From NCBI RefSeq assembly GCF_046105845.1, contig NZ_CP151004.1: DNA of 64,000 nucleotides. The stretch is one strand, 5' to 3'. Of this stretch, positions 5,374 through 43,470 are shown in pieces (the stretch's first letter is position 1; the number at the start of each line of letters is the position of its first letter). Under the pieces are notes generated by a model. The model was not told the DNA's origin. It saw only the letters and a list, made by a program, of their open reading frames with translations, and made no database searches. Source of the stretch: Escherichia coli. Lineage in GTDB: Bacteria > Pseudomonadota > Gammaproteobacteria > Enterobacterales > Enterobacteriaceae. The position numbers and the translations under genes are program-made.

Positions 5374-6228
5374 TTAGTTCTGCGGATTCAACGCGCTAAG
5401 GATAAAATCCACTATCTGTTCGCGATAAACATCGCCGTGACGATCGGAAAAAGCATCAATGTGTTCGCCATCCGGGATTAGGATCAACCGTTTTGGCTCT
5501 TTTGCCAGGCTATACAACTTTTCGCTGTGCTGCCATGGGATAACGTGATCAGCTTTACCGTGAATCAGTAAAAGCGGGATCGGGCTGACGCTGGCGATGT
5601 AATTTTCGCCGCTGTAACTCTCATCAAGTAAGTAGCCACTGCCGGGGATCATCTGGTTGGCGATGGTCGCATAAGAGGCAAATGTGGAGTCGAGGATCAC
5701 CGCACGTATGCCTTCACGATCACCCTGACCAATAACATCCAGAATATTCGCCCCGCCAATACTCTGCCCGAACAGCACCAGCCGTTGTGGGTTTACATCA
5801 CTGCGATGGCGCACCACATTGATGGCACTTTGCGTATCGTCCAGCAATCCGGCCTGGGACGGCGTGCCTTTTGATTTACCAAACCCGCGATAATCAAACA
5901 TAAAAACGTTGAAATTACGCTCGGGTAACCAACTGACCAGCGGCCAGTGGGCGGACATATTTCCGGCATTGCCGTGAGCATGAATAATGGTAGCAATGGC
6001 GTTATCAGCAGGGCCCGTCGAAGAAGGGATAAACCAGCCTTGCAGATGAGTACCGTCCTTAGCCGTAAATTCGACGGATTCCGCCGACCAGGGTTCGGGA
6101 CCGTAAATTTTGTCGTCAGGATAATAGAAGAAATTGATGGCGATGCGCGGTATTAAATAAATGCAGAAGGCAACAACAAAGAGAATAAACAGAATTTTGA
6201 GAACGCGTTTGTTCACTGGCAGCGCCAT
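5374..6228 (-). CDS. yfhR: alpha/beta hydrolase family membrane-anchored protein
   Basis: N-terminal TM segment, hydrolase motifs HGNAGN and GQSIGG; start chosen at MALPVNKR (284 aa). Confidence 0.8.
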   Translation of the reverse strand: MALPVNKRVLKILFILFVVAFCIYLIPRIAINFFYYPDDKIYGPEPWSAESVEFTAKDGTHLQGWFIPSSTGPADNAIATIIHAHGNAGNMSAHWPLVSWLPERNFNVFMFDYRGFGKSKGTPSQAGLLDDTQSAINVVRHRSDVNPQRLVLFGQSIGGANILDVIGQGDREGIRAVILDSTFASYATIANQMIPGSGYLLDESYSGENYIASVSPIPLLLIHGKADHVIPWQHSEKLYSLAKEPKRLILIPDGEHIDAFSDRHGDVYREQIVDFILSALNPQN

Positions 6229-6372
6229 AACCTTTCCTTGCGACTTCTTTATCATCCATTAATCGGGGAAAGATGGTGGGAGAGTGGCGAAAGAAAGTAA
6301 AGCGGTGAGGAAGTATTTCGGAATAGCGCCTGAAAGGCGAGGGCGGGTGAGTGACATCACCCGCCAGAGTCA

Positions 6373-7176
6373 TTAACGCTTCAGGGCGTCGCTTAACTCG
6401 TCACGCATATTCGCCAGCATGGCTTTAACAACGCGCGGGTTACCAGCAACGATGTTACCGGTCAGCATGTAGTTATGACCACCGGTGAAGTCGCTGACGA
6501 TGCCGCCCGCTTCACGAACCAGCAGCTCGCCTGCGGCGAAATCCCACGGACGCAGACCGATTTCAAAGAAACCGTCAACGCGACCCGCAGCAACGTAAGC
6601 CAGATCCAGCGCCGCAGAACCGGTACGACGGAAGTCTGCACATTCGTTGAACAGTTTGCCGACGATGTTGATGTAGGTGGTGGCGTACTGTTTTGCTTTG
6701 AACGGGAAGCCGGTCGCCAGAATAGTACCGTCGAGATCGCGAGCGGTGCTGCCGCGCAGACGGTAGCCGTTCAGCTGTGCGCCCTGACCGCGAGTGGCGG
6801 TGAACAGTTCGTTACGCATAGGATCGTAAACCACAGCAACTTCAGTGCGGCCTTTGATACGAACGGCGATAGATACCGCGAAGTGCGGCAGACGTTTGAT
6901 AAAGTTGGTAGTGCCATCCAGTGGATCGATAACCCATTGAACATCCTGATCAGTACCTTCAAGTTCACCGCTTTCTTCGGTGATGATGGTGTGCTGTGGG
7001 TAAGATTTACGAATCGTGTCGATAATCACCGCTTCGGCAGCTTTATCTACGTTGGTCACGAAGTCGTTACTGCCTTTCTGGCTCGCTTCTACAGCGTCCG
7101 GGGTTTCATAGTTTTTGGCAATTAAATTACCCGCCTTGCGCGCTGCGCGCACGGCGATGTTCAGCATCGGATGCAT
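6373..7176 (-). CDS. suhB: inositol monophosphatase / NusA-associated SuhB
   Basis: 267-aa ORF with IMPase motifs WVIDPLDGT and GRVDGFFE. Confidence 0.93.
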   Translation of the reverse strand: MHPMLNIAVRAARKAGNLIAKNYETPDAVEASQKGSNDFVTNVDKAAEAVIIDTIRKSYPQHTIITEESGELEGTDQDVQWVIDPLDGTTNFIKRLPHFAVSIAVRIKGRTEVAVVYDPMRNELFTATRGQGAQLNGYRLRGSTARDLDGTILATGFPFKAKQYATTYINIVGKLFNECADFRRTGSAALDLAYVAAGRVDGFFEIGLRPWDFAAGELLVREAGGIVSDFTGGHNYMLTGNIVAGNPRVVKAMLANMRDELSDALKR

Positions 7177-7294
7177 CGGTCTCTCTCACTGGATGTTAAA
7201 GAACGGGAAAACGGCGCAGAGTATAGCAGCGAGATCGGCATCTGTCTTCGTTTTATGATAAGATGCGCGAATAATCTTTAGACGAAGAAAGACA

Positions 7295-8035
7295 ATGCTG
7301 CAAAATATTCGAATTGTGCTGGTGGAGACGTCACACACCGGCAATATGGGTTCTGTTGCCCGTGCCATGAAAACAATGGGATTAACCAATCTGTGGCTGG
7401 TTAATCCACTGGTGAAACCTGACTCCCAGGCGATTGCCCTGGCAGCAGGGGCCAGCGATGTGATTGGTAATGCTCATATCGTCGATACGCTCGACGAAGC
7501 GTTAGCCGGTTGTAGCCTGGTGGTGGGCACCAGCGCACGCTCCCGCACGCTGCCGTGGCCGATGCTCGACCCGCGCGAATGCGGTCTGAAAAGCGTCGCT
7601 GAAGCGGCAAATACCCCGGTGGCGCTGGTTTTTGGTCGCGAGCGCGTCGGCTTGACCAATGAAGAGTTGCAGAAATGCCATTATCATGTCGCGATTGCCG
7701 CTAACCCGGAATACAGTTCGCTGAACCTGGCGATGGCGGTTCAGGTTATTGCCTATGAAGTGCGCATGGCCTGGCTTGCAACTCAGGAAAATGGTGAGCA
7801 GGTCGAGCATGAAGAGACGCCGTATCCGCTGGTCGATGATCTGGAGCGTTTTTATGGTCATCTGGAACAAACGCTGCTGGCAACCGGTTTTATCCGTGAA
7901 AACCATCCGGGGCAGGTGATGAATAAATTGCGTCGTCTGTTTACCCGTGCGCGCCCGGAAAGCCAGGAATTGAATATCCTGCGCGGGATTCTGGCTTCTA
8001 TAGAGCAGCAGAATAAAGGTAATAAGGCCGAATAA
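7295..8035 (+). CDS. trmJ: tRNA (cytidine/uridine-2'-O)-methyltransferase (SpoU family)
   Basis: 246-aa ORF, SPOUT-fold motifs, immediately upstream of iscR. Confidence 0.92.
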
Positions 8036-8043
8036 TAGTGGTT

Positions 8044-8127
8044 GCCTGATGCGACGCTTAACGCGTCTTATCAGGCCTGCAGTGCACAGAGCCTCAGGTC
8101 GGATAAGGCGTTCACGTCGCATCCGAC
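8044..8127. repeat. REP (repetitive extragenic palindromic) element pair
   Basis: GCCTGATGCGACGCTTAACGCGTCTTATCAGGCC and GTCGGATAAGGCGTTCACGTCGCATCCGAC, canonical REP palindromes. Confidence 0.8.
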
Positions 8128-8189
8128 AACAGGTACAAACGCCACGATAAAAAAATGGCACTGAAGGTTAAATACCCGACTAAATCAGT

Positions 8190-8300
8190 CAAGTAAATAG
8201 TTGACCAATTTACTCGGGAATGTCAGACTTGACCCTGCTATGCAATACCCCCACTTTTACAATAAAAAACCCCGGGCAGGGGCGAGTTTGAGGTGAAGTA
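8190..8300 (+). promoter_or_regulatory. isc operon promoter / IscR autoregulatory region (candidate)
   Basis: Upstream of iscR; contains TTGACC...TATGCAATA-like elements and a GC hairpin (CCCCGGGCAGGGG) in the leader; exact operator not verified. Confidence 0.45.
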
Positions 8301-8304
8301 AGAC

Positions 8305-8793
8305 ATGAGACTGACATCTAAAGGGCGCTATGCCGTGACCGCAATGCTTGACGTTGCGCTCAACTCTGAAGCGGGCCCGGTACCGTTGGCTGATATTTCC
8401 GAACGTCAGGGAATTTCTCTTTCTTATCTGGAACAACTGTTTTCCCGTCTGCGTAAAAATGGTCTGGTTTCCAGCGTACGTGGACCAGGCGGTGGTTATC
8501 TGTTAGGCAAAGATGCCAGCAGCATCGCCGTTGGCGAAGTGATTAGCGCCGTTGACGAATCTGTAGATGCCACCCGTTGTCAGGGTAAAGGCGGCTGCCA
8601 GGGCGGCGATAAATGCCTGACCCACGCGCTGTGGCGTGATTTGAGCGACCGTCTCACCGGTTTTCTCAACAACATTACTTTAGGCGAACTGGTTAATAAC
8701 CAGGAAGTGCTGGATGTGTCTGGTCGTCAGCATACTCACGACGCGCCACGCACCCGCACACAAGACGCGATCGACGTTAAGTTACGCGCTTAA
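8305..8793 (+). CDS. iscR: Fe-S cluster-containing transcriptional regulator IscR (Rrf2 family)
   Basis: 162 aa; Rrf2 HTH; cluster-ligand Cys residues [13 protein letters not shown]. Confidence 0.95.
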
Positions 8794-9033
8794 TTTAACC
8801 GTCCTGTTTCGTGTTGCATCTGCGTTGACTGCACATACTCACTCTGGTCACTTACTTATGTAAGCTCCCGGAGATTCGTAAGTTTGTCAACTTGCTGAAA
8901 CCCGAAACAGTTAGGTTAAAGATAACAAGATATTAGAATCAGGCCGGGGCGTATCGCGCTCCGTAAACACGGTCGTACATCCAGCCGGTAGCCTGGTTCC
9001 TTGCATTGAGTGATGTACGGAGTTTATAGAGCA

Positions 9034-10248
9034 ATGAAATTACCGATTTATCTCGACTACTCCGCAACCACGCCGGTGGACCCGCGTGTTGCCGAGAAAA
9101 TGATGCAGTTTATGACGATGGACGGAACCTTTGGTAACCCGGCCTCCCGTTCTCACCGTTTCGGCTGGCAGGCTGAAGAAGCGGTAGATATCGCCCGTAA
9201 TCAGATTGCCGAACTGGTCGGCGCTGACCCGCGTGAAATCGTCTTTACCTCTGGTGCAACCGAATCTGACAACCTGGCGATCAAAGGTGCAGCCAACTTT
9301 TATCAGAAAAAAGGCAAGCACATCATCACCAGTAAAACCGAACACAAAGCGGTACTGGATACCTGCCGTCAGCTGGAGCGCGAAGGTTTCGAAGTCACCT
9401 ACCTGGCACCGCAGCGTAATGGCATTATCGACCTGAAAGAACTGGAAGCAGCGATGCGTGACGACACCATCCTCGTTTCCATCATGCACGTAAATAACGA
9501 AATCGGCGTGGTGCAGGATATCGCGGCTATCGGCGAAATGTGCCGTGCTCGCGGCATTATCTATCACGTTGATGCAACCCAGAGCGTGGGCAAACTGCCT
9601 ATCGACCTGAGCCAGTTGAAAGTTGACCTGATGTCATTCTCCGGTCACAAAATCTATGGCCCGAAAGGTATCGGTGCGCTATATGTGCGTCGTAAACCGC
9701 GCGTACGCATCGAAGCGCAAATGCACGGCGGCGGTCACGAGCGCGGTATGCGTTCCGGCACTCTGCCTGTTCACCAGATCGTTGGTATGGGCGAAGCCTA
9801 TCGCATCGCAAAAGAAGAGATGGCGACCGAGATGGAACGTCTGCGCGGCCTGCGTAACCGTCTGTGGAACGGCATCAAAGATATCGAAGAAGTTTACCTG
9901 AACGGTGACCTGGAACACGGTGCGCCGAACATTCTCAACGTCAGCTTCAACTACGTTGAAGGTGAGTCGCTGATTATGGCGCTGAAAGACCTCGCGGTTT
10001 CTTCAGGTTCCGCCTGTACGTCAGCAAGCCTCGAACCGTCCTACGTGCTGCGCGCGCTGGGGCTGAACGACGAGCTGGCACATAGCTCTATCCGTTTCTC
10101 TTTAGGTCGTTTTACTACTGAAGAAGAGATCGACTACACCATCGAGTTAGTTCGTAAATCCATCGGTCGTCTGCGTGACCTTTCTCCGCTGTGGGAAATG
10201 TACAAGCAGGGCGTGGATCTGAACAGCATCGAATGGGCACATCATTAA
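9034..10248 (+). CDS. iscS: cysteine desulfurase
   Basis: Start at [14 protein letters not shown] (404 aa); PLP-binding SGHK motif; ORF-track start at 9010 is an extension. Confidence 0.95.
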
Positions 10249-14029: not shown

Positions 14030-14273
14030 TTTCCGCGTCATGCTTCACGCCGCAGATGCGTTGGCTGCGCTCGTTCACCCCAGTCACATAGTTATCTATG
14101 CTCCTGGGGCTTCACTCACTTGCCGCGTGATTCGGCCTTTTGGCCTCACCCCTCCGGGGCCAGCGCAAGCGCTGTTCAAAACGCAATGCGTTTTGTCCTG
14201 CAACGCGAATCATTTAGCGGAAAAATCCTGGGGCTGCCAACTGGCGGCCCTTTTACAAAGAAGGATAACTAGA

Positions 14274-15675: not shown

Positions 15676-16452
15676 ATGTCCGAAACAAAAAACGAACTTG
15701 AAGATCTGCTGAAAAAAGCAGCAATCGAACCGGCGCACCGCCCGGCCTTTTTCCGTACTCTACTGGAATCCACCGTCTGGGTGCCGGGTACGGCGGCGCA
15801 GGGCGAGGCTGTGGTTGAAGATAGCGCGCTTGATTTACAGCACTGGGAAAAAGAAGACGGCACCAGCGTCATTCCTTTTTTTACCTCGTTAGAAGCACTT
15901 CAACAGGCGGTTGAAGACGAACAGGCATTTGTCGTAATGCCCGTTCGCACATTGTTTGAGATGACCCTTGGCGAAACGCTCTTCCTTAATGCCAAACTGC
16001 CAACCGGTAAAGAATTTATGCCGCGTGAAATCAGTTTGTTGATTGGTGAAGAAGGAAATCCGCTGAGCAGCCAGGAAGTACTGGAGGGCGGTGAATCGCT
16101 GATATTATCGGAAGTCGCAGAGCCACCAGCACAAATGATTGATTCTCTCACCACCTTATTTAAAACTATTAAGCCGGTGAAGCGTGCTTTTATTTGTTCA
16201 ATTAAAGAGAACGAAGAGGCACAGCCTAATTTACTTATTGGCATTGAAGCCGATGGTGATATCGAAGAAATTATTCAGGCGGCGGGAAGTGTAGCGACCG
16301 ATACATTACCTGGCGATGAACCCATCGATATTTGTCAAGTGAAAAAAGGGGAAAAAGGAATTAGCCACTTTATTACCGAACATATTGTGCCATTCTATGA
16401 ACGTCGCTGGGGTGGTTTTTTGCGTGACTTTAAACAGAACCGGATAATCTAA
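15676..16452 (+). CDS. sseB: enhanced serine sensitivity protein SseB
   Basis: Start at MSETKNELEDLL (258 aa); synteny downstream of pepB. Confidence 0.9.
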   Translation: MSETKNELEDLLKKAAIEPAHRPAFFRTLLESTVWVPGTAAQGEAVVEDSALDLQHWEKEDGTSVIPFFTSLEALQQAVEDEQAFVVMPVRTLFEMTLGETLFLNAKLPTGKEFMPREISLLIGEEGNPLSSQEVLEGGESLILSEVAEPPAQMIDSLTTLFKTIKPVKRAFICSIKENEEAQPNLLIGIEADGDIEEIIQAAGSVATDTLPGDEPIDICQVKKGEKGISHFITEHIVPFYERRWGGFLRDFKQNRII

Positions 16453-16753
16453 AATATGCCGCCCCAAAGGGCGGCATTCGGGCTTACCTGCTGTTCTGAA
16501 GGTTGTTAACCACCAATAAATTGTTGCCGGAGAGATTCCGGTTATTATTTACCTCGGTTAACAGCGCACCAGAAACAATAAGTACGATACAAAAGCACCG
16601 TATCTTCATTGTGCGGTCCATGCGAAGACCGCATCACGACAGCACCACTGGCGATATTGCCGCGATAGCAAGCGCTGAGACGCGCGTGCCCTAACGGTCG
16701 CGGAACATCCTTTCCTTAAGCCAGCGCCCGCTTGCGAGACGGCGGAAAGGTCC
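16450..16753 (-). ncRNA. candidate RyfA-like transcript (putative type I toxin mRNA)
   Basis: Minus-strand -10-like TATTAT (16766-16761) and minus-strand terminator hairpin ATGCCGCCC-tttg-GGGCGGCAT + ATTTT (16477-16451) delimit ~304 nt; position matches the sseA-sseB intergenic sRNA locus known in enterobacteria (from memory). Confidence 0.4.
16484..16609 (-). CDS. candidate small hydrophobic protein (41 aa; 45 aa from ATG 16621)
   Basis: Minus-strand ORF MKIRCFCIVLIVSGALLTEVNNNRNLSGNNLLVVNNLQNSR with one predicted TM-like segment; weak SD; in frame with an upstream strongly SD-preceded mini-ORF (16708-16691) separated by two stops. Confidence 0.3.
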   Translation of the reverse strand: MKIRCFCIVLIVSGALLTEVNNNRNLSGNNLLVVNNLQNSR

Positions 16754-16797
16754 GCAGTGGATAATACACTAACAGAACAATAATAACTCTCTTTTGC

Positions 16798-16930
16798 TTG
16801 ACAAAAAGAGGGTTACTGGCGAGTATTGTCTCCGCTGAGACGCGCTTGCATTACTACGGTAATACAACCTGCTGGAAAGGCCGCGAACCGGACCAGCAAC
16901 AAAAAACCGCCTGATTTTGGCGGTTTTTTG
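16798..16930 (+). ncRNA. candidate small RNA unit 1 (promoter to intrinsic terminator; antitoxin-like)
   Basis: Perfect -35 TTGACA (16798-16803), 17-bp spacer, GAGTAT (16821-16826); terminator ACCGCC-tgatttt-GGCGGT + T6 (16901-16930); 5' end 16833-16845 identical to plus strand 16673-16685. Confidence 0.4.
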
Positions 16931-17073
16931 TTGTTTAAAGAAAATGAAATTACACGTTTAAGTAATATCTTTTACCAGTTAGTATATTTTAATATTAAGC
17001 GGGATTTTTTTATATTTGTCTGAATTCGGACTGATAAGCCAAATGAATTCAAAATCTATCCTTTTTTATCTAC

Positions 17074-28748: not shown

Positions 28749-29867
28749 ATGCATAACCAGGCTCCAATTCAACGTAGAAAATCAACACGTATTTACGTTG
28801 GGAATGTGCCGATTGGCGATGGTGCTCCCATCGCCGTACAGTCCATGACCAATACGCGCACGACAGACGTCGAAGCAACGGTCAATCAAATCAAGGCGTT
28901 GGAACGTGTTGGCGCTGATATCGTCCGTGTCTCCGTACCGACGATGGACGCGGCAGAAGCGTTCAAACTCATCAAACAGCAGGTTAACGTGCCGCTGGTG
29001 GCTGACATCCATTTCGACTATCGCATTGCGCTGAAAGTAGCGGAATACGGCGTCGATTGTCTGCGTATTAACCCTGGCAATATCGGTAATGAAGAGCGTA
29101 TTCGCATGGTGGTTGACTGTGCGCGCGATAAAAACATTCCGATCCGTATTGGCGTTAACGCCGGATCGCTGGAAAAAGATCTGCAAGAAAAGTATGGCGA
29201 ACCGACGCCGCAGGCGTTGCTGGAATCCGCCATGCGTCATGTTGATCATCTCGATCGCCTGAACTTCGATCAGTTCAAAGTCAGCGTGAAAGCGTCAGAC
29301 GTCTTCCTCGCTGTTGAGTCTTATCGTTTGCTGGCAAAACAGATCGATCAGCCGCTGCATCTGGGGATCACCGAAGCGGGTGGTGCGCGCAGCGGGGCGG
29401 TTAAATCCGCCATTGGTTTAGGTCTGCTGCTGTCTGAAGGCATCGGCGACACGCTGCGCGTATCGCTGGCGGCCGATCCGGTCGAAGAGATCAAAGTCGG
29501 TTTCGATATTTTGAAATCGCTGCGTATCCGTTCGCGAGGGATCAACTTCATCGCCTGCCCGACCTGTTCGCGTCAGGAATTTGATGTTATCGGTACGGTT
29601 AACGCGCTGGAGCAACGCCTGGAAGATATCATCACTCCAATGGACGTTTCGATTATCGGCTGCGTGGTGAATGGCCCAGGTGAGGCGCTGGTTTCTACAC
29701 TCGGCGTCACCGGCGGCAACAAGAAAAGCGGCCTCTATGAAGATGGCGTGCGCAAAGACCGTCTGGACAACAACGATATGATCGACCAGCTGGAAGCACG
29801 CATTCGTGCGAAAGCCAGTCAGCTGGACGAAGCGCGTCGAATTGACGTTCAGCAGGTTGAAAAATAA
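28749..29867 (+). CDS. ispG: 4-hydroxy-3-methylbut-2-en-1-yl diphosphate synthase
   Basis: 372 aa; [4Fe-4S] Cys ligands (CPTCSR ... GCVVNGPGE). Confidence 0.95.
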
Positions 29868-29977
29868 TAACGTGATGGGAAGCGCCTCGCTTCCCGTGTA
29901 TGATTGAACCCGCATGGCTCCCGAAACATTGAGGGAAGCGTTGAGGGTTCATTTTTATATTCAGAAAGAGAATAAAC

Positions 29978-38017: not shown

Positions 38018-39595
38018 ATGACGGAAAACATTCATAAGCATCGCATCCTCATTCTGGACTTCGGTTCTCAGTACACTCAACTGGTTGCGCGCCGCGTGCG
38101 TGAACTGGGTGTTTACTGCGAACTGTGGGCGTGGGATGTGACAGAAGCACAAATTCGTGACTTCAACCCAAGCGGCATTATTCTTTCCGGCGGCCCGGAA
38201 AGCACCACCGAAGAAAACAGCCCGCGTGCGCCGCAGTATGTTTTTGAAGCAGGCGTACCGGTATTCGGCGTTTGCTATGGCATGCAGACCATGGCAATGC
38301 AGTTGGGCGGTCACGTTGAAGCCTCTAACGAACGTGAATTTGGCTACGCGCAGGTTGAAGTCGTAAACGACAGCGCACTGGTTCGCGGTATTGAAGATGC
38401 TCTGACCGCAGACGGTAAACCTCTGCTCGATGTCTGGATGAGCCACGGCGATAAAGTTACCGCTATCCCGTCCGACTTCGTCACCGTAGCCAGCACCGAA
38501 AGCTGCCCGTTTGCCATTATGGCTAACGAAGAAAAACGCTTCTATGGCGTACAGTTCCACCCGGAAGTGACTCACACCCGTCAGGGTATGCGCATGCTGG
38601 AGCGTTTTGTGCGTGATATCTGCCAGTGTGAAGCCCTGTGGACGCCAGCGAAAATTATCGACGATGCTGTAGCTCGCATCCGCGAGCAGGTAGGCGACGA
38701 TAAAGTCATCCTCGGCCTCTCTGGTGGTGTGGATTCCTCCGTAACCGCAATGCTGCTGCACCGCGCTATCGGTAAAAACCTGACTTGCGTATTCGTCGAC
38801 AACGGCCTGCTGCGTCTCAACGAAGCAGAGCAGGTTCTGGATATGTTTGGCGATCACTTTGGTCTGAACATTGTTCACGTTCCGGCAGAAGATCGCTTCC
38901 TGTCAGCGTTGGCCGGCGAAAACGATCCGGAAGCAAAACGTAAAATCATCGGGCGCGTTTTCGTTGAAGTATTCGATGAAGAAGCACTGAAACTGGAAGA
39001 CGTGAAGTGGCTGGCGCAGGGCACTATCTACCCTGACGTTATTGAATCTGCCGCATCTGCAACCGGTAAAGCACACGTCATCAAATCTCACCACAACGTG
39101 GGCGGCCTGCCGAAAGAGATGAAGATGGGCCTGGTTGAACCGCTGAAAGAGCTGTTCAAAGACGAAGTGCGTAAGATTGGTCTGGAGCTGGGCCTGCCGT
39201 ACGACATGCTGTACCGTCACCCGTTCCCGGGACCAGGCCTCGGCGTTCGTGTACTGGGCGAAGTGAAGAAAGAGTACTGCGACCTGCTGCGCCGTGCTGA
39301 CGCCATCTTCATTGAAGAACTGCGTAAAGCGGACCTGTACGACAAAGTCAGCCAGGCGTTCACCGTCTTCCTGCCGGTACGTTCCGTTGGTGTAATGGGC
39401 GATGGTCGTAAGTATGACTGGGTTGTTTCTCTGCGTGCTGTCGAAACCATCGACTTTATGACCGCACACTGGGCGCATCTGCCGTACGATTTCCTCGGTC
39501 GCGTTTCCAACCGCATTATCAATGAAGTGAACGGTATTTCCCGCGTGGTGTATGACATCAGCGGCAAGCCGCCAGCTACCATTGAGTGGGAGTGA
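38018..39595 (+). CDS. guaA: GMP synthase (glutamine-hydrolysing)
   Basis: 525 aa; GATase motifs GVCYGMQ, ATP-PPase SGGVDSS; ends ...IEWE. Confidence 0.96.
39581..39595 (+). repeat. left copy of islet-flanking direct repeat (functional guaA 3' end)
   Basis: ATTGAGTGGGAGTGA, 13/15 identical to right copy; encodes IEWE-stop. Confidence 0.75.
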
Positions 39596-39634
39596 GGCTA
39601 TTATTTAAACTATTGTTTTATTTGATTTAGTGAG

Positions 39635-39675
39635 TGCCATTGATGATATTGACTGCATTATCAATGGCATTTTTC
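39635..39675 (+). terminator. islet-borne intrinsic terminator now serving guaA
   Basis: 10-bp stem TGCCATTGAT / ATCAATGGCA with 15-nt loop, followed by TTTTT. Confidence 0.55.
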
Positions 39676-39913
39676 ATGGTATAAGGCCGACGCTGAATCG
39701 AAGATATAGCAAATACCATGTGACCCTATCAGCAAATGCCATGGTATCGACAACCGGGGGCATTGCAGCGCTGTGCTGATGCCATCGATGCCCGCTTTTG
39801 GTCAGAACCGCTCTCTCGACCCAAGCCTCCAGATCGTTAAATATGCGCCAGAGGAGCACCTCGTGATCGAAATTGTGAACAAGACAGCCGCCGCTCGGAA
39901 TCGAAGTATCCAT
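39674..39913 (-). CDS. hypothetical 79-aa ORF inside islet (possible gene remnant)
   Basis: ORF only; no recognisable motifs; Trp-rich; no clear SD. Confidence 0.15.
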   Translation of the reverse strand: MDTSIPSGGCLVHNFDHEVLLWRIFNDLEAWVERAVLTKSGHRWHQHSAAMPPVVDTMAFADRVTWYLLYLRFSVGLIP

Positions 39914-39980
39914 ATGGGTGAATAAAGTTTGCGGAAAACACGCTGAGAAAATAGAAAAGCGTCAATGAAGGGACATAGCA

Positions 39981-41261
39981 ATGGCGATTAACGGAGAGGA
40001 CGGTGTTAGTGCAGTCACCGTGGATGAACTACTCAAGCAAGGCCTTCGGATACCGAACTATCAACGCCCATACAGTTGGGAAGTATCGACCGCTCTACAA
40101 CTGGTGGATGATCTTAGCGAAGCTCTTCGAGATACCGAAAGAAAAGATATTCCCTATGTTTTGGGTGCAATCATTCTTCACGATGATGGTGAGTATCTCA
40201 ATGTAGTCGACGGACAGCAACGTCTGCTGACTTTGCGAATGATTCTTGCGGCCTTAGATCCGATAAATCATCAGATTTCGGTGTCTGGTAACAGCGAAAC
40301 TCCTGTCTCCCTGGTTTGGATAGAGCTTCAAAGGCGCCTGTCGCAGTTGGAAGATAAAAAAGAATTTTTGGATTTTATCTGTCACAAATGTCAGTTGGTG
40401 CGTATTGTGACGGACGATATTGATGAGGCATTTCGTGTCTTTGATTCCCAGAACTATCGCGGCAAACCGCTTGCCCCTCATGACTTGCTCAAAGCACACC
40501 ACCTCCGCGAAATGCACGATGAGTCCGCTGCTATGAAAGTGGCTGTCGTTGAGGCTTGGGAAGCCGTAAATGATGAGGATCTGGACAGGCTTTTTTCTAC
40601 TTTTTTATACCGGATATCCAAGTGGTCACGAGGCGAAAGCTCGCTCGAATTTGCTATTCGGGACATCGGGATGTTTAAGGGAATTTCATCACGATCCCAC
40701 AGATCATTTTCGCCAAATCTGCGATATCACCTTGCAGCACAAGCCGCTATGCCACTTCTAAGTGCATGGGCGGTGTCCTCTACACATGATGCACGAAATG
40801 CCGGGCGCAGCCGCTTTCAGCTTGATGCCCCGATAATCGCTGGGCGCTCATTTTTCGAGATGGTGACATTCATGCTTGACGAATTGAAGATACTGGAAAA
40901 AGAGGTTATCGACAGAGGTTTCAAAAACTTTGGCCCATCTCAAAGTCGCTACCGCTACGTGTACGAATTGTTCATTGCCGCGCTGCTTTGCTATACAAAC
41001 AAGTTTGGCGATGAAGATGTGGATGAAGTGCGAAATAGATTATTCGCATGGGCATATGCCTTGCGGGTCGAGTTACTTCGTGTGCAATTTGTATCTGCTG
41101 ACAACCGAGCTCGAGGTAAAAACGATGCAAATAAATCGCCTTTTGTTTTGCTACGCAACGCGATGACTGGAAGTGTTGTCCGCAAACTTCCAATAGCAAG
41201 TCAGCCATACAACGATAACCACGAAAAGGAACTCGTTGCTTTTATCAAGGGGCTGCAATGA
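39981..41261 (+). CDS. DUF262 (ParB/Srx-like NTP-binding nuclease-family N-terminal domain) protein, no DUF1524
   Basis: Motifs IPNYQRPYSW (40050-40079), DGQQRL (40209-40226), FRVFDSQNYRGKPLAPHDLLKAH; SD AAGGGA upstream; 426 aa. Confidence 0.85.
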   Translation: MAINGEDGVSAVTVDELLKQGLRIPNYQRPYSWEVSTALQLVDDLSEALRDTERKDIPYVLGAIILHDDGEYLNVVDGQQRLLTLRMILAALDPINHQISVSGNSETPVSLVWIELQRRLSQLEDKKEFLDFICHKCQLVRIVTDDIDEAFRVFDSQNYRGKPLAPHDLLKAHHLREMHDESAAMKVAVVEAWEAVNDEDLDRLFSTFLYRISKWSRGESSLEFAIRDIGMFKGISSRSHRSFSPNLRYHLAAQAAMPLLSAWAVSSTHDARNAGRSRFQLDAPIIAGRSFFEMVTFMLDELKILEKEVIDRGFKNFGPSQSRYRYVYELFIAALLCYTNKFGDEDVDEVRNRLFAWAYALRVELLRVQFVSADNRARGKNDANKSPFVLLRNAMTGSVVRKLPIASQPYNDNHEKELVAFIKGLQ

Positions 41262-43210
41262 GCAAGAAGGAGTTGAGACCCGAACTGATAACAGTAGGCA
41301 AGCTATTCACGGGCTATTATCTGATTCCTATTTATCAACGGAACTATGCTTGGCGGGCCGAACAGATTGAGCAACTTATCAGCGATATTCAAGGCTCGGT
41401 GGTTGGGGGCCAGGACGACTATTTTCTTGGGAACCTTGTTGTAATCAAGCGGGGTAGAGAGGACGAGTTCGAGGTCATAGATGGACAACAACGACTTACA
41501 ACCCTCTATCTGCTTCTGACCTTCCTGGAGCAAGACGGTGAGGGTGGGAAGCTGTCGATTGGCCATGCAGGCCACTTGCAATATGAGTCGCGCGCACGGG
41601 CAACGGAAGCCCTGCGGCGAGTAGCACAGGAGGCGGCTAAGGGGCACGTCCGACCGCAGGGCTCCACGAGTAATGCAGATGCTGGCATCCATGAAGGCTA
41701 CAGCATCATCAATCAGTTCTTCAAACAAAATGAAACCCTTAATCGCTCACGCGAAAAATTCTCCGATTTCTTGCTAAAGAAGGTTACTGTCGTCCGTGCC
41801 TCGCTGCCACCCAATACCGACCTCAATCGCTACTTCGAGATCATGAACACTCGTGGGCAGCAACTCAAGCAGGTTGATATTGTTAAGGCTCGCCTGATGA
41901 GCAAGCTGCCCAATCAATATGAACGCGAATGCTTCGCGTGGGTTTGGGATGCCTGTGCTGACATGGATTCTTATGTCCAGATGTCTCTGACCCGTGGTGA
42001 CACCAGTTTACGAAACAAAGTATTTGGCGATGAATGGTCCTGGCTGGAGGTGACCAGCTTCGCGTCGCTAATGGAAAGTCGTCCGCAATCCGACATCAGT
42101 TCATTAAGGCAATCCTCCGAAGGGGTATCGTTGTCCTTGGATGAGGCGTTGTCAAAATACGCTAAAGAGATCGAGTCAAATTCCACTGAAGACGAGGGCA
42201 ACGAGCGGTTTCGTTCGACTATTGAGTTTCCGGCCTTTCTGCTACACGTTCTAAGAATTATGAAAGGCGATGAGGTCGAAGACGAAGGCCAGCTTGACGA
42301 CAAGCGCCTCATCAAGTCATTTGACGACGCCGTAAATAATGTACCCGATGCTAAAGCCGATTGGGTGCGTAGCTTTGCATTTATGCTTCTTAAGTGCCGT
42401 AACCTCTTCGATGGCTTCATCTTGAAGCGTCAATTCACGGCGAACATCGGTGACGATGGCGATTGGTCTCTCCAGCGATTGAAGAAAGGCGGTGCGGACA
42501 AGAAGCCAGCCCCGACGTACATCCATGTTTTCTCGGCCAGCAATGGAAACTTGGAGGAGGACAGCGGTGCTGACCCACATACCCGAGATGTATTGTTGCT
42601 TCAGTCCATGCTTCGGATTACCTACACTTCTCCGCGAACGATGCACTGGATTACCAAAGTTCTTCGCTGGCTATCCGTTAAAGCCCCTCAAGACGCGAAA
42701 CATGCGGATCTTGCCGATTTGTTGAAGGGGTATGCCCGCAGCAAGGTTAAAGAGACATTCCCCTTTGAGGAAGATCAGCAACCACAAGGGTTTGGTATCA
42801 GCCGTATCGTCTTTTCATACCTCGACTATCTTCTGTTGAGTGATTCCTCAAAACGAGATTTCAAATTTCAGTTCAGAACTTCCATTGAGCACTTTTATCC
42901 ACAGCATCCGGACAAAGAACAGTCGGGCGCGGCTGTTTCAGGTTCTAGCCTTAACCTGCTTGGCAACCTCGCGCTCGTAAGCGTCAGCGCGAACTCAAAA
43001 TTCAGCAATAGCCTTCCCAGAGCGAAGGCCGAAAACTTCAAGGATACGATTGAACTTCAAAGTCCCAAGCTCAAGAGAATGGCGGAAATCGCTCGAAATA
43101 CAAGCTGGGACGATCAGCAGATAACAGCACATCATGAAGAGATGGTGACATTGCTTCGTGATGATGTAAGTCTGGTGGAGGCAAGCGGAAGATCCTACCC
43201 GGGGCGTTGA
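41258..43210 (+). CDS. GmrSD-like fusion protein: N-terminal DUF262 + C-terminal DUF1524 (His-Me finger/HNH-like endonuclease)
   Basis: N-term IPIYQRNYAW, DGQQRL (41480-), FEIMNTRGQQL...DIVKARL; C-term SIEHFYPQH (EH at 42887-42892) and LLGNLALVSVSAN; 650 aa; ATGA start/stop overlap with upstream gene. Confidence 0.85.
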   Translation: MSKKELRPELITVGKLFTGYYLIPIYQRNYAWRAEQIEQLISDIQGSVVGGQDDYFLGNLVVIKRGREDEFEVIDGQQRLTTLYLLLTFLEQDGEGGKLSIGHAGHLQYESRARATEALRRVAQEAAKGHVRPQGSTSNADAGIHEGYSIINQFFKQNETLNRSREKFSDFLLKKVTVVRASLPPNTDLNRYFEIMNTRGQQLKQVDIVKARLMSKLPNQYERECFAWVWDACADMDSYVQMSLTRGDTSLRNKVFGDEWSWLEVTSFASLMESRPQSDISSLRQSSEGVSLSLDEALSKYAKEIESNSTEDEGNERFRSTIEFPAFLLHVLRIMKGDEVEDEGQLDDKRLIKSFDDAVNNVPDAKADWVRSFAFMLLKCRNLFDGFILKRQFTANIGDDGDWSLQRLKKGGADKKPAPTYIHVFSASNGNLEEDSGADPHTRDVLLLQSMLRITYTSPRTMHWITKVLRWLSVKAPQDAKHADLADLLKGYARSKVKETFPFEEDQQPQGFGISRIVFSYLDYLLLSDSSKRDFKFQFRTSIEHFYPQHPDKEQSGAAVSGSSLNLLGNLALVSVSANSKFSNSLPRAKAENFKDTIELQSPKLKRMAEIARNTSWDDQQITAHHEEMVTLLRDDVSLVEASGRSYPGR

Positions 43211-43400
43211 CTTCTTTGAATAACCGCTTTTGGACGAAAGTCCCTTGTGGAGTGCAAGTTGTCAGTCTAAAAGCGTTTTGCGTCAGGCGACACGATCAGT
43301 ACAGCTCCCAGGTTTTCTTACCATGGTATTTTGTGTGGTATCGACATGCAAATATAATGCTATTCTATTGATTTTACAGTGTTTTAAGGCGGCATTAATC

Positions 43401-43415
43401 ATCGAGTGGGAATGA
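43401..43415 (+). repeat. right copy of islet-flanking direct repeat (displaced ancestral guaA 3' end)
   Basis: ATCGAGTGGGAATGA; would encode IEWE-stop; immediately followed by the A-tract/hairpin/T-tract terminator. Confidence 0.75.
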
Positions 43416-43436: not shown

Positions 43437-43470
43437 AACAAAACCCTCTGTTACTACAGAGGGTTTTTTA
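43437..43470. terminator. bidirectional intrinsic terminator (ancestral guaA / yfgI)
   Basis: AACAAAA-CCCTCTG-ttacta-CAGAGGG-TTTTTT; A-run upstream and T-run downstream. Confidence 0.8.

What the first reader, a model, noticed from the sequence alone, without database searches (positions are those of the whole stretch)
41258..43210. Gene B: complete GmrSD-like DUF262-DUF1524 fusion (650 aa), predicted modification-dependent endonuclease
N-terminal DUF262 motifs (IPIYQRNYAW, DGQQRL, FEIMNTRGQQL...DIVKARL) and C-terminal DUF1524 His-Me finger motifs (SIEHFYPQH with the EH pair; LLGNLALVSVSAN...N) are both intact. Length and domain order match single-chain type IV restriction enzymes of the GmrSD family. 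The predicted function is cleavage of modified (e.g. glucosyl-hmC, hmC or other hypermodified) phage DNA.
Basis: partly seen in the sequence, partly recalled or inferred. Interest (0 to 1): 0.8.

Follow-up and report, generated by a model that had tools for sequence, protein, structure and literature searches.

The report
Nuclease half of two-gene restriction system
Gene B is an intact GmrSD-type nuclease gene, but it is the second gene of an already published two-gene anti-phage restriction system (TgvAB / GmrS1-GmrSD2 type), not a stand-alone enzyme, so the finding is real but ordinary.

Summary
Window 41258-43210 (+) is a 650-aa ORF with Pfam GmrSD_N (DUF262) and GmrSD_C (DUF1524). All quoted motifs sit where stated, and H545 is codon 42890-42892.

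The "single-chain" reading is probably wrong. Gene B overlaps by 4 bp (ATGA) with upstream Gene A (39981-41261), a DUF262 + DUF7834 paralogue with no nuclease domain. This pair and its overlap are conserved from Enterobacteria to Actinobacteria.

Both proteins match, over their full readable length, the cognate halves of two tested two-gene type IV systems:
- E. coli ECOR17 GmrS1/GmrSD2: 30% and 33% identity.
- V. cholerae TgvA/TgvB: 27% and 28% identity.

In both systems neither protein protects alone. Near-identical orthologues are already listed as TgvAB hits (J Bacteriol 2024) and as the doublet CLS_016/CLS_017 (Nat Commun 2025).

The pair is a 3.8-kb integrase-less cassette at the guaA 3' end. 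It is bracketed by GAGTGGGA, the GIsul2 att core. The same cassette sits on 468 plasmids, nearly all Klebsiella.

Verdict: a known system. Its substrate and its dependence on Gene A are inferred, not shown. Interest is low.

The parts
39584..39591 (+). Left border of the cassette. GAGTGGGA lies in the last codons of guaA; the guaA stop codon is at 39593-39595. This is an attL-like core.
   Evidence: K-12 homology ends at 39595 and resumes at 43400, with a 16-nt overlap. A 30-nt imperfect direct repeat links 39566-39595 and 43386-43415. These are the only two GAGTGGGA copies in the 64-kb window. GAGTGGGA is the published att core of GIsul2 at guaA (PMC9376610).
39635..39669 (+). Hairpin (13-nt arms) followed by a T run, inside the cassette just after the guaA stop. 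It is probably a replacement terminator for guaA.
   Evidence: Inverted repeat I7 and the sequence read. Its function is inferred.
39981..41261 (+). Gene A (426 aa): DUF262/ParB-like NTPase domain plus an all-helical DUF7834 domain, with no nuclease domain. This is the TgvA / GmrS1-type partner.
   Evidence: Pfam GmrSD_N at 19-175 (E 1.5e-27) and DUF7834 at 186-414 (E 9.9e-55). It is 30% identical to ECOR17 GmrS1 (E 1e-55) and 27% identical to TgvA residues 1-400 (E 3e-27). Q28, R29, D77-R81, F154 and N158 are invariant. The model's best fold matches are DndI and SspE.
41258..43210 (+). Gene B (650 aa): the finding itself. It is the TgvB / GmrSD2-type nuclease subunit.
41258..41261 (+). ATGA overlap of the Gene A stop codon with the Gene B start codon (translational coupling).
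   Evidence: The same ATGA junction occurs in Janthinobacterium, Nocardioides, Acidovorax, a Klebsiella plasmid and E. coli F9792.
41300..41899 (+). DUF262 (GmrSD_N) domain of Gene B, carrying the QR, DGQQR and FxxxN motifs. Inferred role: NTPase and modification sensor.
42818..43150 (+). DUF1524 (GmrSD_C) His-Me finger nuclease domain of Gene B, with E544, H545 (42890-42892), N570 and N579.
43404..43411 (+). Right border of the cassette. This second GAGTGGGA is followed by the K-12-type guaA tail and intergenic sequence (attR-like core).

Best explanation
Gene B is the nuclease subunit of a two-gene, GmrSD-family type IV (modification-dependent) restriction system of the TgvAB / GmrS1-GmrSD2 kind. 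Gene A (DUF262 + helical DUF7834, no nuclease) and Gene B (DUF262 + helical linker + DUF1524 His-Me finger) are co-translated from one operon.

By inference from the tested relatives, the two proteins act together, probably as a hetero-oligomer. The two ParB-like DUF262 NTPase domains would sense hypermodified phage DNA, most likely sugar-modified 5-hydroxymethylcytosine of T-even-like phages. They would license the E544/H545/N570/N579 site of Gene B to cut that DNA. Gene B alone is expected to be inactive in vivo.

Shown here: the gene and domain architecture, motif conservation, the conserved pairing, homology of each half to its cognate characterised half, and prior cataloguing. Inferred: complex formation, the need for both genes, the substrate, and activity of this particular allele.

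The pair sits on a 3.8-kb integrase-less cassette inserted at the guaA 3' end.
For: Architecture.

Cognate homology: Gene B against ECOR17 GmrSD2 is 33% identical over 675 columns (E 2e-89). Gene A against GmrS1 is 30% identical (E 1e-55). Gene B against TgvB residues 1-400 is 28% identical over 414 columns (E 2e-33). Gene A against TgvA residues 1-400 is 27% identical over 377 columns (E 3e-27). Cross-pairings (A against B types) score only about 1e-7 to 1e-10.

Conserved pairing: the ATGA overlap is kept in beta- and gamma-proteobacteria and actinobacteria, and the two proteins diverge in parallel (A/B identity to the window: 73/68, 63/59, 57/59%).

Motifs: the NTPase motifs are invariant in both proteins and the His-Me residues are invariant in B.

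Fold: the models match the GmrSD-family structures DndI and SspE.

Prior cataloguing: a Shimwellia protein 99% identical to Gene A and a Klebsiella plasmid protein 95% identical to Gene B are listed as hits of the TgvAB MacSyFinder model in Table S5 of PMC11411939. E. coli F9792 orthologues WP_001718661 and WP_001718662 are CLS_016 and CLS_017 in Supplementary Data 6 of PMC12373910, which I read as one of that paper's three two-gene GmrSD systems (the text names only 003/004 and 018/019).

Experiments on relatives: both genes are required, DGQQR and His-Me mutants are dead, and the target is glucosyl-5hmC T-even DNA.
Against: No experiment on this allele or cluster could be read. PMC12373910 tested representatives of all 15 groups, and only 5 further systems were active against T-even phages. 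Which ones were active is shown only in figures that are not held.

Identity to the tested systems is only 27-33%, so the substrate could differ. Only residues 1-400 of TgvA and TgvB were available, so the TgvB nuclease domain was not aligned directly. No sigma-70-like promoter was found upstream of Gene A by the simple scan. A physical A-B interaction was not modelled.
Confidence: 0.8

Rival explanations
1. Gene B is a self-sufficient single-chain GmrSD enzyme like Eco94GmrSD/CT596 GmrSD or HEC-06. Gene A would be an independent or accessory gene, for example a regulator or a decoy against phage inhibitors such as IPI*.
For: Gene B carries both domains and every catalytic residue. Its best PADLOC models are HEC-06, a single-gene system (E 9e-37). 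HEC-06 and BrxU work alone. Vizzarro et al. raise the decoy idea for TgvA.
Against: The best-scoring stretches of the PADLOC HEC-06 hits lie in the DUF262 region (residues 6-90, or 7-222 for one model), and Gene A hits the same models. Similarity to CT596 GmrSD and BrxU covers only about 90 residues. The partner gene and the ATGA overlap are conserved across phyla. In both tested homologous doublets B alone is inactive, even when over-expressed.
Confidence: 0.1
2. The pair is an SspE/DndI-like effector. It would sense the host's own phosphorothioate modification and nick or cut unmodified invader DNA, rather than cutting modified phage DNA.
For: The best structural matches of both models are DndI (9jfl) and SspE. 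PADLOC SspE models hit the N-terminus.
Against: No dnd or ssp modification genes flank the pair in the chromosome (guaA and yfgI are the neighbours) or on the Klebsiella plasmid. The 3.8-kb cassette travels alone. The fold hits reflect the shared GmrSD-family fold, with TM about 0.3 and 13-14% identity. Sequence homology to TgvAB and GmrS1/GmrSD2 is far stronger.
Confidence: 0.03
3. The system is a true two-gene type IV system of this family but recognises a modification other than glucosyl-5hmC. Candidates are plain 5hmC, arabinosyl-hmC, other hypermodified pyrimidines or 7-deazaguanines. It might then be inactive on T-even phages.
For: Identity to the tested doublets is only 27-33%. GmrSD-family members differ in substrate range: BrxU also cuts hypo-modified T4 DNA, while ECOR17 and CT596 do not. 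Only 5 of the extra systems tested in PMC12373910 were active on T-even phages.
Against: Both characterised doublets target T-even phages. Nothing in the sequence points to another ligand.
Confidence: 0.25

Closest known systems
GmrS1/GmrSD2 of E. coli ECOR17 (GmrSD_ECOR17, clusters CLS_003/CLS_004; Nat Commun 2025, PMC12373910)
   Same: The architecture is the same: a DUF262-only protein upstream of a DUF262-DUF1524 protein. Homology of each half is full-length (30% and 33% identity, E 1e-55 and 2e-89). The EH active site aligns (E544/H545 with E582/H583). The host species is the same. The same paper lists this locus's own cluster as CLS_016/CLS_017, which I take to be one of its three doublets.
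   Different: It belongs to a different sequence cluster at about 30% identity. Gene A is 426 aa against 483 aa, and Gene B is 650 aa against 680 aa. The chromosomal site differs. Sensitivity to T4 Ip3 and activity on T-even phages are unknown for this cluster.
TgvAB (VC1767/VC1766) of Vibrio cholerae VPI-2 (PMC11411939; PMC11014532)
   Same: It is a two-gene system with overlapping ORFs. DGQQR is present in both proteins and an H...N...N His-Me finger only in B. Cognate homology is E 3e-27 for A and E 2e-33 for B. Near-identical orthologues of this locus are hits of the published TgvAB model. A homologous pair in Janthinobacterium also lies next to a type I hsdR gene.
   Different: Identity is 27-28%. 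The overlap is 4 bp here against 8 bp. This locus is not embedded in a type I R-M operon and rides a small cassette at guaA. The TgvB-type N-terminal motif is IPSYQRPYVW against IPIYQRNYAW here.
Single-chain GmrSD (CT596 GmrSD / Eco94GmrSD) and BrxU
   Same: The Pfam domains, their order and the catalytic motifs are the same.
   Different: Those enzymes work as one polypeptide. Sequence similarity is confined to about 90 N-terminal residues. BrxU's RLFDS motif reads QLISD here. There is no BREX context.
HEC-06 (PADLOC; Payne et al. 2024 preprint)
   Same: It gives the best PADLOC profile hit (E 9e-37). It has a DGQQR motif and an EH nuclease motif, both shown by mutagenesis to be essential.
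   Different: HEC-06 is a single-gene system of about 560 aa embedded in Hma systems. The best-scoring stretches of the hits lie in the DUF262 region, and Gene A hits the same models.
SspE / DndI (phosphorothioate-sensing GmrSD-like nucleases)
   Same: They are the closest solved folds for both Gene A and Gene B. The EH...GNL...N motifs align.
   Different: They depend on neighbouring ssp or dnd modification genes, which are absent here. Sequence identity is 13-14%.

Membership tests
GmrSD family in the broad sense (Pfam GmrSD_N + GmrSD_C) | N-terminal DUF262/ParB-like domain with the QR, DGQQR and FxxxN motifs | tested here: met
   Pfam E 4.9e-33. Motif positions were verified. The motifs are invariant in 27 homologues.
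GmrSD family in the broad sense (Pfam GmrSD_N + GmrSD_C) | C-terminal DUF1524 His-Me finger with (D/E)H ... N ... N on a beta-beta-alpha element | tested here: met
   Pfam E 4.1e-14. E544, H545, N570 and N579 are invariant. They align to ECOR17, CT596 and BrxU and to SspE and DndI. The model has strands 542-545 and 571-574 followed by a helix.
GmrSD family in the broad sense (Pfam GmrSD_N + GmrSD_C) | NTP-stimulated cleavage of modified DNA but not unmodified DNA | not testable with these tools
   This needs biochemistry or plaque assays.
TgvAB / GmrS1-GmrSD2 two-gene type IV systems | Adjacent co-oriented genes: A has DUF262 without a nuclease, B has DUF262 + DUF1524 | tested here: met
   Gene A has no GmrSD_C hit.
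TgvAB / GmrS1-GmrSD2 two-gene type IV systems | Overlapping ORFs and a pairing conserved across taxa | tested here: met
   The ATGA overlap is present here and in 5 other contexts from 3 bacterial classes. Both genes are covered in 78 of 81 E. coli genomes that carry the locus.
TgvAB / GmrS1-GmrSD2 two-gene type IV systems | Each protein is homologous to the cognate characterised component beyond the generic DUF262 core | tested here: met
   Only residues 1-400 of TgvA and TgvB were available. ECOR17 was compared over its full length.
TgvAB / GmrS1-GmrSD2 two-gene type IV systems | Recognised by the published family models or clusters | tested here: met
   Orthologues at 99% (A) and 95% (B) identity appear in Table S5 of PMC11411939. 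WP_001718661 is in CLS_016 and WP_001718662 is in CLS_017 in PMC12373910.
TgvAB / GmrS1-GmrSD2 two-gene type IV systems | Both genes are necessary and together sufficient for defence | not testable with these tools
   Shown for TgvAB and ECOR17 only.
TgvAB / GmrS1-GmrSD2 two-gene type IV systems | Targets glucosylated 5hmC DNA of T-even phages | not testable with these tools
   Shown for TgvAB and ECOR17. The result for CLS_016/017 is not readable.
Single-chain GmrSD in the strict sense (Eco94GmrSD / CT596) | A stand-alone gene whose single product suffices | tested here: not met
   At the genomic level a conserved, translationally coupled partner is always present. Functional sufficiency itself was not tested.
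Single-chain GmrSD in the strict sense (Eco94GmrSD / CT596) | Full-length sequence similarity to CT596 or Eco94 GmrSD | tested here: not met
   Only 95 N-terminal residues align (E 2e-8).
BrxU | RLFDS nucleotide-binding motif and a BREX-embedded location | tested here: not met
   The motif position reads QLISD. The neighbours are guaA and yfgI.
SspE / DndI | Linked ssp or dnd phosphorothioation genes | tested here: not met
   None is present in the cassette, its flanks or the plasmid context. The fold similarity alone is generic to the family.
HEC-06 (PADLOC) | Full-length match to the HEC-06 profile, and a single-gene system | tested here: inconclusive
   E 9e-37, but the best stretch covers residues 6-90 of the protein. 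Gene A also hits the model (E 1.7e-28). No HEC-06 sequence was available for direct comparison.

The most novel reading that the evidence does not exclude
The 3.8-kb A+B unit may be a discrete, integrase-less defence cassette that moves by site-specific recombination at the GAGTGGGA core, the att core of GIsul2-family integrases at the guaA 3' end. It would borrow an integrase in trans, as the CR2-sul2 unit does, and so shuttle between Klebsiella conjugative plasmids and enterobacterial chromosomes. Separately, Gene A could have a role beyond co-sensing, such as a decoy against phage anti-restriction proteins, which would explain why a complete GmrSD needs a nuclease-less paralogue.
Probability: 0.3. 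Interest if true: 0.4.

Novelty: already known. Interest (0 to 1): 0.15.

Why it matters
The locus adds little that is new. It is a correctly spotted anti-phage type IV restriction gene, but the system type has been characterised experimentally in V. cholerae and E. coli ECOR17. This exact cluster is already listed in two papers' supplementary data.

The practical point concerns annotation and experiment design. RefSeq labels both genes only as 'DUF262 domain-containing protein'. PADLOC v2 would probably label them HEC-06. Testing Gene B alone would probably give a false negative, because its relatives need the upstream partner.

The side observation may interest people who study defence-gene mobility: the cassette is flanked by the GIsul2 att core at guaA, and it is very common on Klebsiella conjugative plasmids.

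Tried and rejected
- NCBIfam has no model for either protein.
- A phmmer search against PDB sequences gave only weak N-terminal hits to DndI and SspE.
- I searched PMC12373910 for the window's own RefSeq accessions (WP_033870229, WP_062875467) and found nothing. The cluster was found only through the F9792 orthologue accessions.
- I tried to learn whether CLS_016/017 was among the five additional active systems. The legends do not say and the figures are not held.
- I tested whether the cassette's non-coding ends resemble other GIsul2-bearing plasmids. Only the same 455-468 plasmids matched. The link to GIsul2 therefore rests only on the target site and the 8-bp core.
- A simple promoter scan found no convincing sigma-70 site upstream of Gene A.
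- Rfam and tRNA scans of the window showed only ordinary E. coli backbone RNAs and no tRNA at the insertion site.
- The SspD PADLOC hit on GuaA (E 2e-4) was dismissed as shared ATP-pyrophosphatase-fold similarity.
Full report
**1. Observation**

Window 41258-43210 (+) is an uninterrupted ATG-to-stop ORF of 650 aa. Pfam assigns GmrSD_N/DUF262 to residues 15-214 (E 4.9e-33) and GmrSD_C/DUF1524 to residues 521-631 (E 4.1e-14).

In a 27-sequence alignment reaching down to 35% identity, these residues are invariant: the QR pair (Q27, R28), DGQQR (75-79), F193/N197, E544, H545, N570 and N579. An AlphaFold model (pLDDT 76, pTM 0.76) shows strand 542-545 ending in H545, then strand 571-574 and a helix. 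This is the His-Me beta-beta-alpha arrangement.

The EH, GNL and N residues align with ECOR17 GmrSD2, CT596 GmrSD and BrxU, and with SspE and DndI.

**2. Context**

The window is ordinary E. coli chromosome. The local gene order is xseA, guaB, guaA, Gene A, Gene B, yfgI, yfgH, yfgG, pdeF, ppx.

Gene A (39981-41261, 426 aa) ends in an ATGA overlap with the Gene B start. It carries GmrSD_N (residues 19-175) plus DUF7834 (186-414) and has no nuclease domain. Its QR, DGQQR and F..N motifs are invariant among homologues.

Profile-profile comparison shows that A and B are paralogues over A 11-313 and B 11-344. Gene A therefore looks like a GmrSD protein that lacks the nuclease. The Gene A model best matches DndI and SspE, as does the Gene B model.

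**3. The pair is a conserved unit**

Homologues of Gene B in Janthinobacterium, Nocardioides and Acidovorax all have a GmrSD_N+DUF7834 gene immediately upstream with the same ATGA overlap. The two proteins diverge in parallel:

| Source | Gene A identity to window | Gene B identity to window |
|---|---|---|
| Janthinobacterium | 73% | 68% |
| Acidovorax | 63% | 59% |
| Nocardioides | 57% | 59% |

In E. coli, 81 of 5426 complete genomes carry the locus, and 78 of them cover both genes. RefSeq names both genes only 'DUF262 domain-containing protein'.

**4. Comparison with characterised systems**

I rebuilt reference sequences from published supplementary files and compared them by BLASTP.

| Query | Reference | Identity | Aligned span | E-value |
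|---|---|---|---|---|
| Gene B | ECOR17 GmrSD2 | 33% | full length | 2e-89 |
| Gene A | ECOR17 GmrS1 | 30% | 424 columns (A 22-375) | 1e-55 |
| Gene B | V. cholerae TgvB (1-400) | 28% | 414 columns | 2e-33 |
| Gene A | V. cholerae TgvA (1-400) | 27% | 377 columns | 3e-27 |
| Gene B | CT596 GmrSD | - | about 90 N-terminal residues | 2e-8 |
| Gene B | BrxU | - | about 90 N-terminal residues | 3e-5 |

Both doublets have been tested experimentally:
- In ECOR17, GmrS1 or GmrSD2 alone gives no protection. Together they restrict T2, T6 and T4 lacking ip3. E582A/H583A abolishes defence, and T4 Ip3 blocks the system (PMC12373910).
- In V. cholerae, TgvA and TgvB are both required. DGQQR mutants of either protein and His-Me mutants of TgvB are dead. 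The target is glucosylated 5hmC (PMC11411939, PMC11014532).

**5. Already catalogued**

Table S5 of PMC11411939 lists hits of the TgvAB MacSyFinder model. It includes a Shimwellia blattae protein 99% identical to Gene A and a Klebsiella plasmid protein 95% identical to Gene B.

In Supplementary Data 6 of PMC12373910, the E. coli F9792 orthologues are members of defined clusters. WP_001718661 (97% identical to Gene B) is in CLS_016, and WP_001718662 (99% identical to Gene A) is in CLS_017.

That paper describes three two-gene GmrSD systems in Enterobacteria and names 003/004 and 018/019. I infer that CLS_016/017 is the third, because these adjacent clusters hold this locus's adjacent B and A genes. 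The paper states that representatives of all 15 groups were synthesised and tested. I could not read whether CLS_016/017 was among the five additional active systems.

**6. Mechanism (inferred)**

A and B are co-translated and act together. Their ParB-like DUF262 NTPase domains would sense hypermodified cytosine DNA, and the Gene B His-Me site would cut it.

- Shown here: architecture, motif conservation, conserved pairing, cognate homology.
- Inferred: hetero-oligomer formation, the requirement for both genes, the substrate.

I put 0.8 on the two-gene TgvAB/GmrS1-GmrSD2 reading and 0.1 on a self-sufficient single-chain enzyme. I put 0.03 on an SspE/DndI-like phosphorothioate sensor, because no dnd or ssp genes accompany the cassette.

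The exact modification recognised is open, given only 27-33% identity to the tested systems.

**7. The cassette (side observation)**

K-12 has 92 bp between guaA and yfgI. The window has 3820 extra bases there. K-12 homology ends at 39595 and resumes at 43400 with a 16-nt overlap.

The insert is bracketed by an imperfect 30-nt direct repeat of the guaA 3' end. Its core, GAGTGGGA, occurs only twice in the whole window, at 39584-39591 and 43404-43411. GAGTGGGA at the guaA 3' end is the published att core of the GIsul2 integrase (PMC9376610). There is no integrase in the insert.

The same cassette, at 96% identity and equivalent to window 39581-43410, is on 468 PLSDB plasmids. Of these, 464 are Klebsiella and 394 are predicted conjugative. 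In pKP4831-1 it is again bracketed by GAGTGGGA and GAGTGGGT.

The cassette's non-coding ends match nothing else in PLSDB. Mobilisation in trans by a GIsul2-type integrase therefore remains a hypothesis.

**8. Verdict**

However, the gene is one half of a known, published two-gene type IV restriction system, not a single-chain enzyme. Novelty: already known. Interest: low.

Noticed in passing
window 39584-39591 and 43404-43411 (cassette 39596-43403): The A+B pair is a 3.8-kb insertion relative to K-12, placed at the guaA 3' end. It is bracketed by the only two GAGTGGGA copies in the window. GAGTGGGA is the published att core of the GIsul2 integrase, yet the cassette has no integrase.
   Followed up: partly
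L009 (K. pneumoniae plasmid pKP4831-1, locus 5986-9812) and 467 other PLSDB plasmids: The whole cassette, including its non-coding ends, is 96% identical on 468 plasmids (464 Klebsiella, 394 predicted conjugative). In pKP4831-1, an IncFIB/IncFII plasmid, it lies between the sopAB partition genes and umuDC and is flanked by GAGTGGGA and GAGTGGGT.
   Followed up: partly
L004 1929-4577 (metagenome contig): In one metagenomic homologue the Gene A-type gene is split by an IS transposase (Transposase_mut) while the B gene stays intact. This is a natural A-knockout that could show whether B alone is tolerated or useful.
   Followed up: no
L002/L003 455-7914 (Janthinobacterium): The homologous A+B pair lies directly downstream of a type I hsdR gene and a YgjP-like gene, echoing the type I R-M-embedded position of V. 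cholerae TgvAB.
   Followed up: no
window 39635-39669: A 13-bp-stem hairpin followed by a T run lies inside the cassette just after the guaA stop. The original K-12 guaA/yfgI terminator hairpin is displaced to 43440-43467.
   Followed up: no
window 39593-39595 vs K-12 (L007): The last sense codon of guaA is GAG here and GAA in K-12 (both Glu), followed by TGA in both. This fits a crossover inside the GAGTGGGA core, with the cassette supplying the bases that follow it (GTGA here, ATGA in K-12).
   Followed up: partly
window 8923-9032, 14131-14203, 16451-17065, 29867-29958: Rfam finds the expected backbone RNAs (iscRS element, ryfA, IS128, sroE) and a weak AaHKsRNA22 hit. None is related to the finding.
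   Followed up: no
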